Shown: positions 1,672 through 10,030 of the stretch, piece by piece
Position numbering within the stretch: the first letter of the stretch is position 1
Layout: the number at the start of each line of letters is the position of its first letter
IMG/VR virus record: IMGVR_UViG_3300006201_000003
Span: 128,095 to 138,206 of that record
Direction: 5' to 3' (one strand)
DNA from: a virus
Taxonomy: Duplodnaviria > Heunggongvirae > Uroviricota > Caudoviricetes
DNA length: 10,112 bases
Made by a program: the position numbers and the translations under genes
The notes under the pieces: generated by a model
The model's database searches: none
Told to the model about the DNA's origin: nothing
What the model saw: only the letters and a program-made list of their open reading frames with translations

Positions 1672-2008
1672 ACAACGTAGGTCTTTTAAGAAGAAACACG
1701 GAAAAACAGCACGAGAGTATGCAGCAGACAAACTTAATAAGCTCTCTCAGAAAATTGAAAATCATTTGCTGGATGGCGATAAAGTAAGATTGGATGTAGA
1801 CCGTATTGTAAGCCGTAGTGATTATGCACACACAACTGAAGAGTATAAGGAGTTTGTGGAGTCCTCTCGTGATAAGGTTTTCACTGTCCGTCTTTATCGA
1901 AAACGCAATGATGGTTTTTCTGCGATAGTCGAACTTGCTGAAGAACCTAAGTGGTTGTTCTGGTATGGTGATCTGGTTCTGGTTCAGAATGGAGGGCAGT
2001 CCTATTAA
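1661..2008 (+). CDS. Hypothetical phage protein (~115 aa), basic N-terminus MNREQRR
   Basis: GTG at 1661 with AGGGGG upstream (TTG 1655 alternative); overlaps the upstream stop; same-strand operon packing. Confidence 0.75.
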   Translation: MNREQRRSFKKKHGKTAREYAADKLNKLSQKIENHLLDGDKVRLDVDRIVSRSDYAHTTEEYKEFVESSRDKVFTVRLYRKRNDGFSAIVELAEEPKWLFWYGDLVLVQNGGQSY

Positions 2009-4826
2009 CGGTTCAGTGTATATTGTATCTGCGGATGCAAAAGATTTGTTTTTGTCTAACTATTCCAATAGCCGTTGCATAGGGTATACCGTGCGGTATA
2101 GTGGTGGAGAGAACCAGGGAGAGTTTAATACCAAACGGTTTATAAATACGCTGGATTACAGCTTGGACTTAATCAAATTGCGTGAAATCTATGAGAAGGT
2201 TTACCGCAGAATGGATTTCACATTCAGCAAACGAGGGAAGGAATTTTGCCGTCGTGTTATCAATGTGACATTCAAGTACAGCATCAAGGAGTTCAATCGC
2301 TTCTTCGATAAGACATATATCAAATATGGATACTTGCCAAGCGACGTGGAGCTTGTAGATAACATCTGTATAAAAGACGGTGAGTTGATTGCAGTGCGGA
2401 TTGATGAAACAGTAAACAATCCGGTTGCAGCGTCTGTACTTGGTTCCTTATTCGTTTTTGAAGATGGTGCTTACAAGTTGGGGAAGAATATGAAGGTTCT
2501 ATTTACTGCTGCCCAACTTCGTGACCGTCTGTATCACGATGGATTTGACTGTGACGGAATCCATTTTCAGCGGTTTAAGCGTTCTGCCGGCAGTGGACGT
2601 GTTGGCAAATGTTTGTTTATCGACGAGAAACTTTACCCGCGTATGCACAAGTGGGAGCAGTGTGGTTTACGTGTCCGTCAAGGGCAAGAAATGGATCTTG
2701 CTGGATTCGAGGCGTACATTGCATTGACATTGAGTAGCATCATCGGAACAATTCAACTTCGTCCTGAAAACTTCCTTGTAATTGATGACTTCACCAGCAC
2801 ATTCAAAGATAAGGTAATTGCTACACGTCTTGGTGACGATGGTTGGCTTTCTTCTAAACCAGAAGAGGTTGAAATTTCCAACAGCATCTGGGATGGGCAG
2901 TCTCTTATCGACAAGAGTGCTATGGGTGAGTACGGCGAACATGGTATGATTCTTTTACGTAATAGGTTTTTTAAGTCTGCTTGCTTCAACTGCAATGTCC
3001 AGAAATTCTTTACGGAACAAGGAATCACGGAAGTGTCACAGTTGAACGGGTTTACCCTTGCCCAGTCTATTGAAGAAATCAAAGTGATTACTACACCAAG
3101 CAGTATTAAATATGTCAAGTTTGGCTCGTTGGAGCAGTGGCTTCAACTGTTGGAGGAGGATGGGGATTTTGGTGTTGTCAAACATGAAAAGCCCACACAT
3201 TTCTTTGACGGTAGGATGGTGCAGATTCACTACCAGCTGTTAAATACCTTGCAGATGACGCAGGAGGACGTTGACTCTCTGGTGAGGCCGTCTCTTGAAT
3301 ATTTACAGTTGATCGAAAACGACCCTGCCGTACTTCGGTATCATATCCGATACACTGGTGGAGAAAAGCCTTTGGACGCAGCGCCTTCGACGAACGACAT
3401 CATCTATCAGATGCTGGGGGTTACGGATCTCTTCGCCCAGACGAAGCTGTACGATGACTACCGGCACGATATTTCCAAAGCGTTCAAGAAAGACATTCGG
3501 CGTGGGCATATTCTGGTGAACGGGAACTACTCTACCTTGCTTGGCAATCCGATGGAGATGCTGTTCTCCTCTATCGGACAGTTCGACGGGAAGAGCCAAA
3601 TCGGTGTTGGAAATATTTACAGTAAACATTTCTCATTTAATCAGACCATTCTGGGATCTCGCAGCCCTCATGTGACGATGGGCAATATTCTTTTAGTTAA
3701 GAATAAAGAAAACCCAGAGATTGAACACTTCTTCAATCTTACAAATGAGGTAGTGTGTGTCAACAGCATTGAGGAGAACACCCTATTTCGTCTTTCGGGA
3801 GCCGACTTCGACTCTGACACAATGCTTCTAACGGACAACCCCATTCTGATACGGGCAGCGGTGCGTAACTACCACCGTTTCCTCGTGCCTACCAGTCTTG
3901 TTGATGCCAGAAAAATTGTGCGGCACTATACCAGAGTGGATCAGGCTGATCTTGACATCAAAACATCTGTAAACAAGATCGGTGAGATTGTTAATCTTTC
4001 CCAAGAGTTGAACACGAGGCTGTGGGATGCAATGAACGGTGGAGTAGACTTCTCCGAGGTGGAGGAGTTGTACTGCGAGATCGCCCAGCTGGACGTTTTG
4101 AGCAACATCGAGATCGACAAGGCGAAGCGTGAGTACGCAGTAGATAGCATTGGTGAAATCAAACGGCTGAGGAAGAAGTACGAAATGCGTGACAATGACG
4201 GGAGGCAGATCAAACCCAACTTCTTAGGGAAAATCGCCCGCATGAAAGGCTATTACGATAGTGACCGTAAGAACTATAAGTTCCATGACACCACTATGGA
4301 CTATCTGCAACATAGCCTAAACTCTTTCCGAATGAAGTGCATTAAAAAGCCGATGCTGCCGTTCTCAGCTTTGCTGGTGCCTACGAGCGGTGTTGATCTG
4401 AGCCATTCAGTGTGGCATCCGCAGGTAAACCGCATTTTGGAAATCGTTAGGGATATGCGGACGAAGATTCAGGCGATATGGAATAGTACCAATGACGATT
4501 TGGATAACGTCAGTAAAGCGATCCTTGTGAATGAGGTGCGCCAGGAGTATCTGGACTATATCAAAAATATCAAACTTAGCCGTCATACGGCGTGTCGTCT
4601 GCTGCTGGCGATTGAGGAGCCGACCAACAAGGATATTGGCCGCACCCTGTTCTATGCTCTCTTTTCTTTGCCTAATCAGGACTTCATTGACCTGATCGAG
4701 CAGAGCCGGACACCGATCTCAATGCTGATAGAGGATGAAAATGCAGCCGGAAGCATTGAAATATACGGTCTTCGCTTCCGAAAAGACATGGTAGTTCCGT
4801 CAAAACTCGTGGATTACATCTGTTGA
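1989..4826 (+). CDS. yonO: YonO-like single-subunit phage RNA polymerase (double-psi beta-barrel, eukaryotic RdRP-like family)
   Basis: Long ORF with RdRP-family motifs in order: KRSAGSGRVGKCLF, WDGQSLI (2889), RNRFFKS (2958), RSP (3660), catalytic loop SGADFDSD (Asp triad 3804-3818). Synteny with yonV/yonK/yonJ/HU as in SPbeta. Start is ATG 1989 or ATT 2004 (see findings). Confidence 0.85.
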   Translation: MEGSPINGSVYIVSADAKDLFLSNYSNSRCIGYTVRYSGGENQGEFNTKRFINTLDYSLDLIKLREIYEKVYRRMDFTFSKRGKEFCRRVINVTFKYSIKEFNRFFDKTYIKYGYLPSDVELVDNICIKDGELIAVRIDETVNNPVAASVLGSLFVFEDGAYKLGKNMKVLFTAAQLRDRLYHDGFDCDGIHFQRFKRSAGSGRVGKCLFIDEKLYPRMHKWEQCGLRVRQGQEMDLAGFEAYIALTLSSIIGTIQLRPENFLVIDDFTSTFKDKVIATRLGDDGWLSSKPEEVEISNSIWDGQSLIDKSAMGEYGEHGMILLRNRFFKSACFNCNVQKFFTEQGITEVSQLNGFTLAQSIEEIKVITTPSSIKYVKFGSLEQWLQLLEEDGDFGVVKHEKPTHFFDGRMVQIHYQLLNTLQMTQEDVDSLVRPSLEYLQLIENDPAVLRYHIRYTGGEKPLDAAPSTNDIIYQMLGVTDLFAQTKLYDDYRHDISKAFKKDIRRGHILVNGNYSTLLGNPMEMLFSSIGQFDGKSQIGVGNIYSKHFSFNQTILGSRSPHVTMGNILLVKNKENPEIEHFFNLTNEVVCVNSIEENTLFRLSGADFDSDTMLLTDNPILIRAAVRNYHRFLVPTSLVDARKIVRHYTRVDQADLDIKTSVNKIGEIVNLSQELNTRLWDAMNGGVDFSEVEELYCEIAQLDVLSNIEIDKAKREYAVDSIGEIKRLRKKYEMRDNDGRQIKPNFLGKIARMKGYYDSDRKNYKFHDTTMDYLQHSLNSFRMKCIKKPMLPFSALLVPTSGVDLSHSVWHPQVNRILEIVRDMRTKIQAIWNSTNDDLDNVSKAILVNEVRQEYLDYIKNIKLSRHTACRLLLAIEEPTNKDIGRTLFYALFSLPNQDFIDLIEQSRTPISMLIEDENAAGSIEIYGLRFRKDMVVPSKLVDYIC

Positions 4827-4916: not shown

Positions 4917-5001
4917 CTCGTCAAGAATTTTGGTCATATATGAGGAAAGCGACGAATAAAATCAAAGTTTCCTCAAATCTATATGAAAAGGATGAATTTT
5001 T

Positions 5002-6996: not shown

Positions 6997-7064
6997 ATTT
7001 TGTTCGTCGCTATTGACATCCACTGAAACCTGTGGTATAGTATGACCATAGCGACGAACAAAAT
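6997..7064. repeat. Perfect 17-bp inverted repeat flanking the promoter core
   Basis: ATTTTGTTCGTCGCTAT (6997-7013) and ATAGCGACGAACAAAAT (7048-7064), 34-bp spacer. Confidence 0.9.
7013..7041 (+). promoter_or_regulatory. Consensus sigma-A/sigma-70 promoter for the RNA array
   Basis: TTGACA (7013-7018), 17-bp spacer, extended -10 TGTG-G-TATAGT (7031-7041), upstream A-tract 6982-6997; predicted TSS ~7047-7048, ~21 nt before tRNA-Thr. Confidence 0.9.
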
Positions 7065-7150: not shown

Positions 7151-7767
7151 TTGAAAACTTAATCTTTGAATCATGCTTATTACTAACTCGGTGAACAAAG
7201 TGTGTCAGCACTCCGAGGTATATGGTAATTTCGGTAGGAACTGCGAGGGATACCTTGCAGGGAGGATCGTCGTCATGCAGCGATGTAGGGCGAGGAGGCG
7301 GAAACCGCCAAGAAAAACATATTTCGCTAAGAGTTATCGCTTTGTAACGCACAGAACTTTCGGGCGCAGCAATAGACGCTCCATGTGGAGAATAAGCCTT
7401 GCAGTATATCGGGGTGGTAGCCGATTATACGGAGGTAAAACCAATAATGTGCTTCTGTCTTGATGCCGAAGAAATTCGGCTATAACGAAAGTATCTGGTT
7501 AAAGTAGCCGTAGGACAGGTTGAAAACATCTTTTCATTTTGAAAGTATGTAGACTATACAGGTCAATAATGAAATTTTCTGAATGAACGGTGAAATTTGC
7601 GGGTAGACAATCCCGTGCAGGATATGGCGCTGATGCGCTGGGGCAAGAAGTTAGGGGTCGCTCCCCGAAGCTCAGACTTGTCTCCCTGGTGGCGGAACAA
7701 CAAGGAAGATAATGGAGGTAGGGTGAAGACCCAGTAATGAGTGTGATTGAGAGATTAAGTTCTTCAA
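7151..7767 (+). ncRNA. Large structured ncRNA, probably ROOL-class (core ~7169-7748, ~580 nt)
   Basis: 5' and 3' ends pair over ~34 bp; many internal hairpins (7241-7260, 7297-7309, 7465-7480 with GAAA loop, 7654-7666, 7721-7732); lies between two tRNAs in a phage; no credible CDS. ROOL assignment rests on size and context only. Confidence 0.6.
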
Positions 7768-7791
7768 AGTAGCGAATAAAATCGCTGATAC

Positions 7792-7894: not shown

Positions 7895-8321
7895 GGGGCC
7901 GTAAAGGATTCGACGGGGTTTTGAGAGTACAGGACTCGCAGGTAGAAGACCGCCTAAAGGCTTAAACAAAAATGAAACGACAACACTGAAACTGTCATTA
8001 TGATCCATCCCGCTTTTGCCGCTTTCATGGCTGAGAGGATTGCCGCCTGATTGGTGGAGGACTTTCCAAAACGACGTACCAGCTGGATATAGGTAAACGT
8101 CTGAGGTAAAAGATTTATCCAGCACTTGCAGTTTTTCCTTGTACTTCTGTTAAATAAAGACAAGGTGGTGGAGGTGTGCAAACCATTGTACGCCCTGGGA
8201 TAGATTTGACGGTATCGCAAGCGCCCGCTGTAATGCAACGCTGAAAAATCGTCTATTGCGTAAGAATGTCTTGTTCATGTAGGAATTTCGGACGCGGGTT
8301 CGATTCCCGCCGGCTCCACCA
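7895..8321 (+). ncRNA. ssrA: tmRNA (427 nt); predicted tag (A)DNTETVIMIHPAFAAFMAERIAA at 7979-8050
   Basis: 5' GGGGCCGTAAAGGATTCGAC and 3' GGACGCGGGTTCGATTCCCGCCGGCTCCACCA tRNA-like domain with G3:U pair, no anticodon arm; internal frame ending ...IAA-stop. Confidence 0.93.
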
Positions 8322-8474
8322 GCTGCCAGGTCGCTCCTGGCTGATGTGAGAGTAGCGCAACGCCTCACAAAGAATGATAAAGGCCGCTGAAAACTGCTGG
8401 AGGATAGTGAAGCATCAAATGATGCGTAACTGGCTGATGATAGTGTGACAATCTAAGCGACAAGCGCACAAAAT

Positions 8475-8554: not shown

Positions 8555-8612
8555 GGGACACTGACAGCAATCTTAACAAAACTTTTTGGGGTAAAAAAAG
8601 AAAATGTGTTCC
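8555..8612 (+). ncRNA. ACAGCAA tRNA-like element, copy 1
   Basis: 7-bp stem GGGACAC/GTGTTCC, then TG-ACAGCAA; central hairpin 8582-8600; AAAAT before the 3' arm. Confidence 0.55.
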
Positions 8613-8615
8613 GTT

Positions 8616-8713
8616 GAGACGCTAACAGCAATTTCAAGAAATTCTATCAAATTCTACAATTTTTTAGTCTTACACAGACACCTCCAATTTTCATTTTTTC
8701 ATTGATGCGTCTC
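8616..8713 (+). ncRNA. ACAGCAA tRNA-like element, copy 2
   Basis: 7-bp stem GAGACGC/GCGTCTC (compensatory changes relative to copy 1), then TA-ACAGCAA; 84-nt AT-rich interior. Confidence 0.55.
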
Positions 8714-8729
8714 GTGAAAATCATAATAT

Positions 8730-8805: not shown

Positions 8806-8880
8806 GAATCTCAAAACATGACGGGGAGTTTACAGAAATAGGTGTCTACACCAGTTTCGTTTTTAGAACCGTCTATATAT

Positions 8881-8956: not shown

Positions 8957-9111
8957 GGCCCGTCCTACGAACAGAGAGGAGACTGCAAACTTAATGGGAA
9001 ATGGAAATGTTCACGTTTGGCCGTGAAAACTTTAAGCAGGTTTCAAGTGAAACCGCCGCGCCACAACAGCGGAGAGTTGGCAGCATAACCAGCGCTGCGA
9101 GCTGGTTATCT

Positions 9112-9190: not shown

Positions 9191-9254
9191 GGGGCACTAA
9201 CAGCAACTTCACACATGGAATCAACTTTTAATTGATAGCTTAAAAATGTGTTCC
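9191..9254 (+). ncRNA. ACAGCAA tRNA-like element, copy 3, with a tRNA-Lys(UUU)-type anticodon arm and no T arm
   Basis: 7-bp stem GGGGCAC/GTGTTCC, TA-ACAGCAA, ATCAA-CTTTTAA-TTGAT at 9220-9236, then an 11-nt linker. Confidence 0.6.
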
Positions 9255-9263
9255 GTAATTTAT

Positions 9264-9350
9264 GCTGGTGTGGTGGAATTGGCAGACGCGGTGGACTCAA
9301 AATCCGCTACTGGCAACAGTGTGTGGGTTCAAATCCCACCACCAGCACCA
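9264..9350 (+). tRNA. tRNA-Leu(CAA)
   Basis: 87 nt with long variable arm (ACTG-GCAA-CAGT); loop CTCAAAA; encoded CCA. Confidence 0.95.
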
Positions 9351-9443
9351 GGAGGGCCGGTTATGGCGCATATACCGGATAGTCAAAGCGGGGTTCCCAG
9401 AGATGGTTGCAAACTTCAAAGGTAAACACCCGCCCCTCTGCCA
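9351..9443 (+). ncRNA. Putative 93-nt GCCA-ended non-cloverleaf RNA
   Basis: GGAGGG/CCCTCT stem followed by GCCA, stacked on GCGGG/CCCGC; hairpin 9357-9378; abuts the tRNA-Leu CCA. Confidence 0.45.
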
Positions 9444-9450
9444 AACAAAT

Positions 9451-9771: not shown

Positions 9772-9793
9772 ATGAAAAGAGGTGCTGTTTACG

Positions 9794-10030
9794 GTGCGGA
9801 AATCTGCTGTGGTTAAAGACGTATCTGAAAAGATTGTAAAGAAAATTCCGTCTTCTGAAAATGGGCCGGGCGTGTCCTGCACAACTAAGAATGGGCAGAA
9901 CTATCAGATCAGTCAGAATTTGGAGAAAATGAAATTTACTCTTTGGAAGGTCACAGAGAATGGCTTTATCAAGATTGCAACAGCAAATTCTCCACTTGAC
10001 CTTGATGATTTGATTCCGTGGAATGAATAG
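9794..10030 (+). CDS. Hypothetical protein (~78 aa) embedded in the tRNA array
   Basis: Fills the gap between two Glu tRNAs almost exactly; SD AGAGGTG (9778-9784) precedes in-frame GTG 9794 (GTG 9782 alternative). Confidence 0.65.
   Translation: MRKSAVVKDVSEKIVKKIPSSENGPGVSCTTKNGQNYQISQNLEKMKFTLWKVTENGFIKIATANSPLDLDDLIPWNE

What the first reader, a model, noticed from the sequence alone, without database searches (positions are those of the whole stretch)
9191..9255. T-armless tRNA-Lys(UUU) mimic inside ACAGCAA copy 3
Seen: 7-bp acceptor-like stem, 22 nt (canonical ~19-21), a perfect 5-bp stem with loop CTTTTAA (9220-9236), only 11 nt in place of the variable and T arms, then the 3' strand and G. 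No canonical tRNA-Lys is in this window. Copy 1 has a hairpin at the same offset (8582-8600). Known: CUUUUAA is the tRNA-Lys(UUU) loop, the target of PrrC and PARIS AriB, and T-armless tRNAs are known from nematode mitochondria. Inference: a decoy for anticodon nucleases or LysRS/modification enzymes, or a minimal tRNA.
Basis: partly seen in the sequence, partly recalled or inferred. Interest (0 to 1): 0.75.

Follow-up and report, generated by a model that had tools for sequence, protein, structure and literature searches.

The report
Lysine-anticodon bait on phage Y-like RNA
A 65-base RNA gene hidden between the tRNA genes of a gut phage is not a stripped-down tRNA but a conserved "handle", genetically tied to a Ro60-shaped ring protein, that displays a copy of the lysine tRNA anticodon arm, most plausibly as bait for host enzymes that cut that tRNA (untested).

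Summary
The sequence is as described, and the tRNA-Lys(UUU) anticodon-arm mimicry is real. Across 133 non-redundant short relatives, 56 carry an anticodon-type hairpin (17 expected) and 12 carry CUUUUAA (0.09 expected). Stems covary. Lys(UUU) makes up 36% of strict mimics against 3.6% of neighbouring tRNA genes.
The "T-armless tRNA" reading fails. There is no D arm and no encoded CCA. In sister RNAs the same helix plus G is closed by a loop inside a full tRNA that has its own acceptor stem. The genome also has a normal tRNA-Lys(UUU) 1.15 kb past the window.
The element belongs to a widespread family (7-bp helix, NN, ACAGCAA, cargo, G) with no Rfam match and no paper found. It travels with DUF2828 (14/15 near-complete phages, 0/14 controls), which folds like Ro60; a 90%-identical phage has seven handles just upstream of that gene.
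Best reading: a Y-RNA-like partner displaying bait for PrrC-type nucleases; AriB is less likely. Binding, expression and decoy function are untested. The scan found this family before on other DNA (63 notes, 57 genomes), and those notes gave the DUF2828 lead.

The parts
9191..9255 (+). Whole small RNA gene (ACAGCAA-handle family, copy 3) with a tRNA-Lys(UUU) anticodon-arm cargo
9191..9197 (+). Handle helix P1, 5' strand (pairs with 9248-9254); not an acceptor stem
   Evidence: All 7 pairs covary across 336 members; closed by a loop in grafted forms
9198..9206 (+). NN + ACAGCAA single-stranded box; inferred docking site of the DUF2828 (Ro60-fold) protein
   Evidence: 302/710 ACAGCAA sites are closed by a perfect 7-bp helix against 0-3% for scrambled cores; linkage to DUF2828; binding inferred
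9216..9219 (+). 5' strand of accessory helix P2 (9216-9218 with 9240-9242) plus an unpaired A equivalent to tRNA A26 (9219); weak in this copy (two G-U pairs, not predicted by energy)
   Evidence: P2 in fixed register in 41/58 Lys members against 6-12 in nulls, A26 in 54/58; double changes at all 3 pairs; pair probability 0 in this copy
9220..9236 (+). Anticodon stem-loop mimic: 5-bp stem, loop C32 U33 UUU A37 A38, A31-U39 pair as in clostridial host tRNA-Lys
9237..9247 (+). 3-nt bulge (like a variable loop), 3' strand of P2, A-rich linker; no T arm
9248..9255 (+). P1 3' strand and the conserved G; no encoded CCA follows
   Evidence: G in 281/302 without any scoring bonus; CCA 0/336
8555..8613 (+). 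Family copy 1; cargo is a U/A hairpin, Pro-like loop in the ortholog
8616..8714 (+). Family copy 2; 84-nt cargo, folds well (z -3.5), no clear anticodon loop
9112..9187 (+). tRNA-Gly(UCC) ending in CCA 3 nt before the element; its processing would free the 5' end (inferred)
9264..9350 (+). tRNA-Leu(CAA) starting 8 nt after the element; RNase P cleavage would free the 3' end (inferred)
7013..7041 (+). Sigma-70-type promoter (11/12 match) at the head of the stable-RNA operon that contains the element
   Evidence: consensus match only

Best explanation
9191-9255 is a small non-coding RNA of a widespread phage family built from a handle (7-bp helix, two bases, ACAGCAA, and a G after the 3' strand) and a swappable tRNA-derived cargo (shown). 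Here the cargo is the anticodon arm of tRNA-Lys(UUU), in the family usually stacked on a second short helix through an A26 and a 2-4-nt bulge, which would copy the anticodon end of the tRNA L-shape (shown by covariation; geometry inferred). The RNA is probably cut out of the tRNA operon transcript when the flanking tRNA-Gly and tRNA-Leu are processed (inferred). The handle docks on the phage DUF2828 protein, a Ro60-fold ring, as Y RNAs dock on Ro60 (linkage and fold shown; binding inferred). The protein would protect the RNA and present the loop as a non-translating bait that soaks up anticodon-directed host defence nucleases of the PrrC/RloC type, sparing the real tRNA-Lys pool during infection (inferred). 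The paired ends would hold a nicked RNA together.
For: Anticodon-type hairpins in 56/133 non-redundant short cargos against 16.8+-3.7 in shuffles; 7-nt loops enriched 32 against 8.4; G37 follows G36 as in real tRNAs, p=3e-4. CUUUUAA 12 against 0.09. Lys(UUU) is 36% of strict mimics against 3.6% of tRNA genes in the same loci, p=7e-10, and it is the best-known nuclease target. Stem covariation: 62 double-changed cells against 18 in shuffles. DUF2828 in 38/48 handle-bearing records (14/15 near complete) against 0/44 (0/14) tRNA-Lys-selected controls, and in 8/8 near-complete records with a Lys mimic. In G001 (90% identical to the window) all 8 pattern matches lie in the tRNA array or within 1.5 kb upstream of DUF2828, and that upstream stretch holds seven handles. 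The AlphaFold model's 13 significant PDB matches are all Ro60/TROVE. PrrC binds and cleaves isolated modified Lys anticodon stem-loops (PMC1950546).
Against: No RNA-level evidence, and binding to DUF2828 is not shown. The window's own contig (15% complete) lacks DUF2828. PrrC's cues include base modifications, and it is unknown whether this RNA is modified. AriB needs D-loop and other contacts. Many cargos mimic tRNAs with no known nuclease, and over half of short cargos have no anticodon loop. One to a few bait RNAs must compete with an abundant host tRNA. Records are related, so the counts overstate independence.
Confidence: 0.48

Rival explanations
1. Sensor or gate rather than sponge: same particle, but cleavage (or loss of modification) of the displayed Lys loop reports that the host has launched a tRNA attack. 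It switches the Ro60-like ring, for example by opening its cavity or recruiting host PNPase or an RNA ligase.
For: Y RNAs act as gates and tethers for Ro60, and phage phiLo Ro60-Yrl recruits host PNPase (PMC4201824, PMC12135203). Each phage carries a panel of different anticodons, like a sensor array. A few copies suffice for sensing. Ro60/TROVE is linked to RNA repair in jumbo phages (PMC7824862).
Against: No effector is known. No RtcB or Rnl1 and no convincing Rnl2-type ligase in the closest relatives G001, G009 and G002, although G110 and G113 have ligases.
Confidence: 0.22
2. Adaptor for the translation machinery: the loop recruits lysyl-tRNA synthetase, U34/A37 modification enzymes or ribosomes paused at AAA codons to the Ro60-like particle, to re-route or inhibit them.
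For: The loop keeps U33, UUU and A37-A38 plus A26 and a stacked helix, which such enzymes read (general tRNA knowledge). tmRNA and ROOL lie in the same operon.
Against: It does not explain the tenfold excess of Lys(UUU) as simply as nuclease pressure does. Some siblings have A instead of U33, which would spoil decoding. Inhibiting these enzymes would hurt phage translation.
Confidence: 0.15
3. Relic: a handle-bearing permuted tRNA-Lys that lost its T, acceptor and D arms by deletion; only the handle matters and the loop is a leftover.
For: Long siblings are permuted or grafted tRNAs that keep an anticodon loop next to the handle. Copy 1's loop is labile among orthologs. P2 is decayed to G-U pairs in this copy.
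Against: The loop recurs on covarying, otherwise unrelated stems in distant phages. The stem differs from the phage's own tRNA-Lys arm. There is a strong Lys excess.
Confidence: 0.08
4. A functional minimal (T-armless or armless) tRNA-Lys that gets CCA, is lysylated and decodes AAA.
For: 7-bp terminal helix, U8-A9-like start, 5-bp stem with a perfect Lys loop, and overall length like nematode mitochondrial tRNAs.
Against: No D stem (4/59), no T loop (1/59), no encoded CCA in an array whose tRNAs mostly encode it. The same helix and G serve all cargos, including ones with no anticodon, and occur loop-closed inside tRNAs with their own acceptor stem. Bacterial EF-Tu needs the T arm (PMC4013460). 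A normal tRNA-Lys(UUU) is in the same operon.
Confidence: 0.03

Closest known systems
Bacterial and phage Y RNAs (YrlA/YrlB, Yrn1; Rfam RF02553) with Ro60/Rsr; Thermus phage phiLo Ro60-Yrl (PMC4201824, PMC12135203)
   Same: RNA with paired 5'/3' ends and an adjacent conserved single-stranded box, encoded next to a Ro60-fold protein gene. Long siblings have YrlA's T arm - closed acceptor stem - D arm order.
   Different: The box is ACAGCAA, not GNCGAA(N)G (0/336). The partner is DUF2828+DUF7788, 11-18% identical to Ro60 and without a TROVE Pfam hit. YrlA mimics the D/T/acceptor part, whereas this RNA mimics only the anticodon arm. No Rfam hit.
Class I RNAs of dictyostelid amoebae (Rfam RF01414; PMC7919456)
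   Same: About 60 nt, short terminal stem with covariation, adjacent 11-nt motif whose five most conserved positions (T3, C6, C9, A10, A11) all match here, variable interior.
   Different: Eukaryotic genes with a DUSE promoter, 6-bp stem, no tRNA cargo reported. The Rfam model does not hit the window even at E 5. Homology is unproven.
T-armless and armless mitochondrial tRNAs of nematodes (PMC4013460)
   Same: Terminal 7-bp helix, anticodon arm, short 3' connector instead of a T arm.
   Different: Those keep the D arm (T-armless type), are CCA-tailed and charged, and use a special EF-Tu. Here there is no D arm, the helix is a family handle, and the connector pairs as P2.
Phage tRNA-Lys(UUU) that counters PARIS/AriB (T5; PMC11464382) and PrrC-T4 tRNA repair
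   Same: Same target tRNA and the same phage tRNA-array setting.
   Different: T5 supplies a cleavage-resistant working tRNA; this would be a non-working, host-like bait. No RNA decoy for anticodon nucleases was found in the papers searched.

Membership tests
T-armless mitochondrial-type tRNA | D arm retained | tested here: not met
   No D stem in copy 3; 3 or more pairs in register in only 4/59 Lys members
T-armless mitochondrial-type tRNA | Terminal helix is an acceptor stem with a discriminator base | tested here: not met
   The same helix and G occur closed by a loop inside tRNA bodies that have their own acceptor stem and frame cargos with no anticodon
T-armless mitochondrial-type tRNA | Unpaired TV-replacement loop | tested here: inconclusive
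   The 11-nt length fits, but in 41/58 relatives it pairs with the 5' linker; not predicted to pair in this copy
T-armless mitochondrial-type tRNA | CCA end, aminoacylation, EF-Tu binding | not testable with these tools
   CCA is not encoded (0/336); post-transcriptional addition and charging need experiments
tRNA-Lys(UUU) anticodon arm | 5-bp stem, 7-nt loop Y32 U33 UUU R37, unpaired purine 26 | tested here: met
   host arms share the loop, A26 and A31-U39 but differ at the outer pairs
YrlA-type Y RNA | Encoded near a Ro60 ortholog | tested here: inconclusive
   The linked DUF2828 has the Ro60 fold, but no TROVE Pfam hit and sequence E 0.13 to phage Ro60. In G001 this copy's ortholog is about 43 kb from the gene, while other handles are adjacent. 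Absent from the window's partial contig.
YrlA-type Y RNA | GNCGAAN0-1G Ro-binding motif near the 5' end | tested here: not met
   0/336 members
YrlA-type Y RNA | tRNA-like T-acceptor-D domain | tested here: not met
   Absent in this RNA; present in long siblings
YrlA-type Y RNA | 5' and 3' ends paired into a stem | tested here: met
YrlA-type Y RNA | Physical binding to the Ro60 protein | not testable with these tools
   Needs EMSA or pull-down
Dictyostelid Class I RNA | Short terminal stem plus adjacent 11-nt motif with T3, C6, C9, A10, A11; 42-65 nt | tested here: met
   5/5 positions in copy 3; T3 in 223/336 members; the other four are required by my search
Dictyostelid Class I RNA | Match to the Rfam model RF01414 | tested here: not met
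   No hit up to E 5
Dictyostelid Class I RNA | DUSE promoter about 60 nt upstream, amoebal genome | not tested
   Not searched; the setting is a phage tRNA operon

The most novel reading that the evidence does not exclude
Phages encode an RNA 'sponge' against tRNA-cutting immunity: a Ro60-like ring loaded with a panel of anticodon-arm baits, led by Lys(UUU). It would be the RNA counterpart of protein sponges for immune signals, and its handle may share ancestry with amoebal Class I RNAs.
Probability: 0.35. Interest if true: 0.85.

Novelty: new variant of a known kind. Interest (0 to 1): 0.6.

Why it matters
tRNA-Lys(UUU) is the commonest known target of antiphage nucleases. The known phage answers are resistant tRNAs and repair enzymes. 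A protein-mounted RNA bait would be a third strategy. The anticodon spectrum of the baits (Lys far ahead, then Cys, Asn, Ser, Thr, Glu, Ile) would be a readout of which tRNA attacks phages face. The family also gives a large uncharacterised protein family (DUF2828) a candidate RNA ligand, extends Y-RNA biology to a second binding code, and offers a lead for the unexplained Class I RNAs of social amoebae. All of this is directly testable with a 65-nt transcript and one protein.

Tried and rejected
Rfam at E up to 5: nothing on any copy. Paper searches for the motif, permuted phage tRNAs, DUF2828 and phage tRNA decoys found no description; the library is incomplete. Expression: no RNA holder listed; the four runs laid were contigs, probably DNA, so nothing follows about expression. 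Idea that phages keep a host-like A31-U39 bait while their real tRNA-Lys avoids it: true in this lineage (real arm C31-G39), but 10/16 against 36/81 controls is not significant, p=0.27; many mimics were also selected by a pattern that forced A-U. G3-U70 alanine identity: not conserved in orthologs. RtcB/Rnl repair partner in the closest relatives: not found. DUF2828 in the window's own contig: absent, but the contig is 15% complete. Self-splicing or intron reading: no BHB or ribozyme core seen, and the handle exists in both permutations, which fits a docking module better (not tested further). One scan failed through wrong spacing.

Full report
Setting. The window is part of a 20-kb linear virus contig with terminase and portal genes downstream. 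From a sigma-70-type promoter at 7013-7041 runs a stable-RNA operon with ROOL, tmRNA and 12 tRNAs in the window and 18 on the contig, the last being a canonical tRNA-Lys(UUU) at G000 14265-14340. The finding lies between tRNA-Gly (ends 9187) and tRNA-Leu (starts 9264).

Observation. Every coordinate given is right. The terminal helix is firm (pair probability 0.99) and the anticodon-like hairpin moderately so (0.5-0.64). The loop on a 5-bp stem arises in 2 of 20,000 shuffles of the cargo. Independent assemblies hold the same DNA, and the listed differences fall outside the loop. Two points need correcting: the genome does have a normal tRNA-Lys, and the 22-nt stretch forms no D arm. Copy 1's best hairpin has a non-anticodon loop, although its ortholog in L002 has a Pro(UGG) loop.

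The family. Pattern scans of viral, metagenome and genome collections gave 336 distinct elements of one plan: 7-bp helix, two free bases, ACAGCAA, a variable cargo, the closing strand, G. All seven pairs covary. Without any scoring bias, 302 of 710 ACAGCAA sites in these loci are closed by a perfect 7-bp helix (0-3% for scrambled cores), and G follows in 281. None encodes CCA. Cargos are short hairpins, circularly permuted tRNAs (anticodon loop, T arm, loop-closed acceptor stem, D arm: the YrlA order) or whole tRNAs. A third form has the handle closed by a loop and grafted between the D arm and anticodon loop of a full tRNA with its own acceptor stem; in several such cases the conserved G is the first loop base. 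So the helix is not an acceptor stem and the G is not a discriminator. Rfam has no match and no paper describing the family was found.

Is the anticodon mimicry selected? Yes. Among 133 non-redundant short cargos not chosen for their loop, 56 have a YU-NNN-R loop on at least 4 of 5 pairs (shuffles 16.8+-3.7) and 30 on 5 of 5 (3.9+-2.0). Seven-base loops alone are enriched (32 against 8.4), G37 follows G36 as in real tRNAs (p=3e-4), and CUUUUAA occurs 12 times against 0.09 expected. Lys(UUU) is 12 of 33 strict mimics but only 3.6% of 901 tRNA genes in the same loci. In 30 aligned Lys members the structure shows 62 double-changed cells against 18 in shuffles and beats all slid registers; the loop and the A-U pair next to it were forced by my patterns in most of these rows, and the rows are related. 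An A precedes the stem in 54/58, and a second helix stacks there, with a 2-4-nt 3' bulge, in 41/58 (nulls 6 and 12). This would imitate the anticodon-on-D-helix arm of tRNA (inference). In this copy the second helix is only U-A, G-U, G-U and is not predicted to form; relatives have G-C pairs there. Clostridial host tRNA-Lys arms share the loop, A26 and A31-U39 but not the outer pairs. The phage's own tRNA-Lys has C31-G39, but this contrast is not significant family-wide.

The partner. Earlier scan notes pointed to DUF2828; I tested this. It is present in 38/48 handle-bearing virus records (14/15 near complete) and in 0/44 control records chosen only for a tRNA-Lys gene (0/14), in 8/8 near-complete records with a Lys mimic, and in 5/5 bacterial genome assemblies with one (possibly prophage). 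The window's contig is too partial to show it. G001, 90% identical over the window, encodes a 519-aa member with seven handles in the 1.7 kb upstream; its other pattern matches lie in the tRNA array. The AlphaFold model (pLDDT 80) matches only Ro60/TROVE structures at E below 0.001, best TM 0.56 to Thermus phage Ro60. The RNA lacks the Y-RNA motif (0/336) described in PMC4201824. So it probably works like a Y RNA but is not a YrlA. Its signature also matches the five most conserved motif positions of amoebal Class I RNAs (PMC7919456); homology is unproven.

Mechanism. Shown: handle, cargo, selection on the Lys loop, linkage to a Ro60-fold gene. Inferred: release by processing of the flanking tRNAs, binding of the handle by DUF2828, display of the loop. 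For the purpose I favour bait for anticodon nucleases (0.48). PrrC recognises mainly the anticodon stem-loop and cleaves isolated modified ones (PMC1950546), and the Lys excess matches the best-known target. AriB is a weaker candidate because it also reads the D loop and other parts (PMC12409363). Rivals are a cleavage sensor or gate (0.22), an adaptor for synthetase, modifiers or ribosomes (0.15), a relic (0.08) and a working minimal tRNA (0.03; bacterial EF-Tu needs the T arm, PMC4013460). No RtcB or T4-type ligase was found in the closest relatives, so a recycle-by-repair step has no local support. There is no evidence on expression either way.

Verdict. Real, conserved and apparently unpublished; a new variant of the Ro60/Y-RNA kind rather than a T-armless tRNA. 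The scan has met the family in at least 57 genomes before. Interest 0.6.

Noticed in passing
G000 14189-14255 (L148:1290-1356), just past the window: A fourth handle RNA with two hairpins (z -3.9), sitting directly before the real tRNA-Lys(UUU); conserved in L002.
   Followed up: partly
L428:561-625 (G001, upstream of DUF2828); also L010:7152, L038:3485: Handle RNAs with a perfect anticodon-like stem but loop C-A-NNN-AA (A instead of U33), one with the UUU anticodon: an arm that could not decode normally.
   Followed up: no
L428:820-1950 (G001): Several tRNA bodies with the handle grafted into the anticodon arm, called intron-containing tRNAs by ARAGORN; likely mis-annotated as introns in other phage genomes.
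   Followed up: partly
window 7163-7751 and 7895-8321: ROOL RNA (379 bits) and tmRNA at the head of the tRNA operon.
   Followed up: partly
window 1935-4826: 963-aa protein (phrog_8308, unknown function) with a GADFDSD motif, recalling single-subunit phage RNA polymerases such as YonO (from memory, not tested).
   Followed up: no
window 6997-7064, 4946-4963, 7766-7783, 1112-1129: A 23-bp inverted repeat brackets the operon promoter, and its half-site (GCGACGAAYAAAATC-like) recurs before other genes: possible operator or phage promoter element.
   Followed up: no
window 8322-8474, 8806-8880, 8957-9111, 9351-9450: Other long, GC-rich spacers between tRNAs that look like further structured RNAs; two share a TGCAAACTT word. 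No Rfam match.
   Followed up: no
window 9782-10030 and L148:229-456: Two paralogous small ORFs (82 and 75 aa, no Pfam or PHROG hit for the first) inside the tRNA array.
   Followed up: no
L009:1968, L024:1207: Orthologs of copy 1 switch the loop from a Pro(UGG)-type to an AAG-G type, keeping G37 after G36.
   Followed up: no
L388, L392, L395, L396, L384, L394: Lys-loop handle RNAs in tRNA clusters of bacterial assemblies (Lachnospiraceae, Sarcina, Dialister, Ruminococcus); the five genomes tested all encode DUF2828. Chromosomal or prophage origin not resolved.
   Followed up: partly
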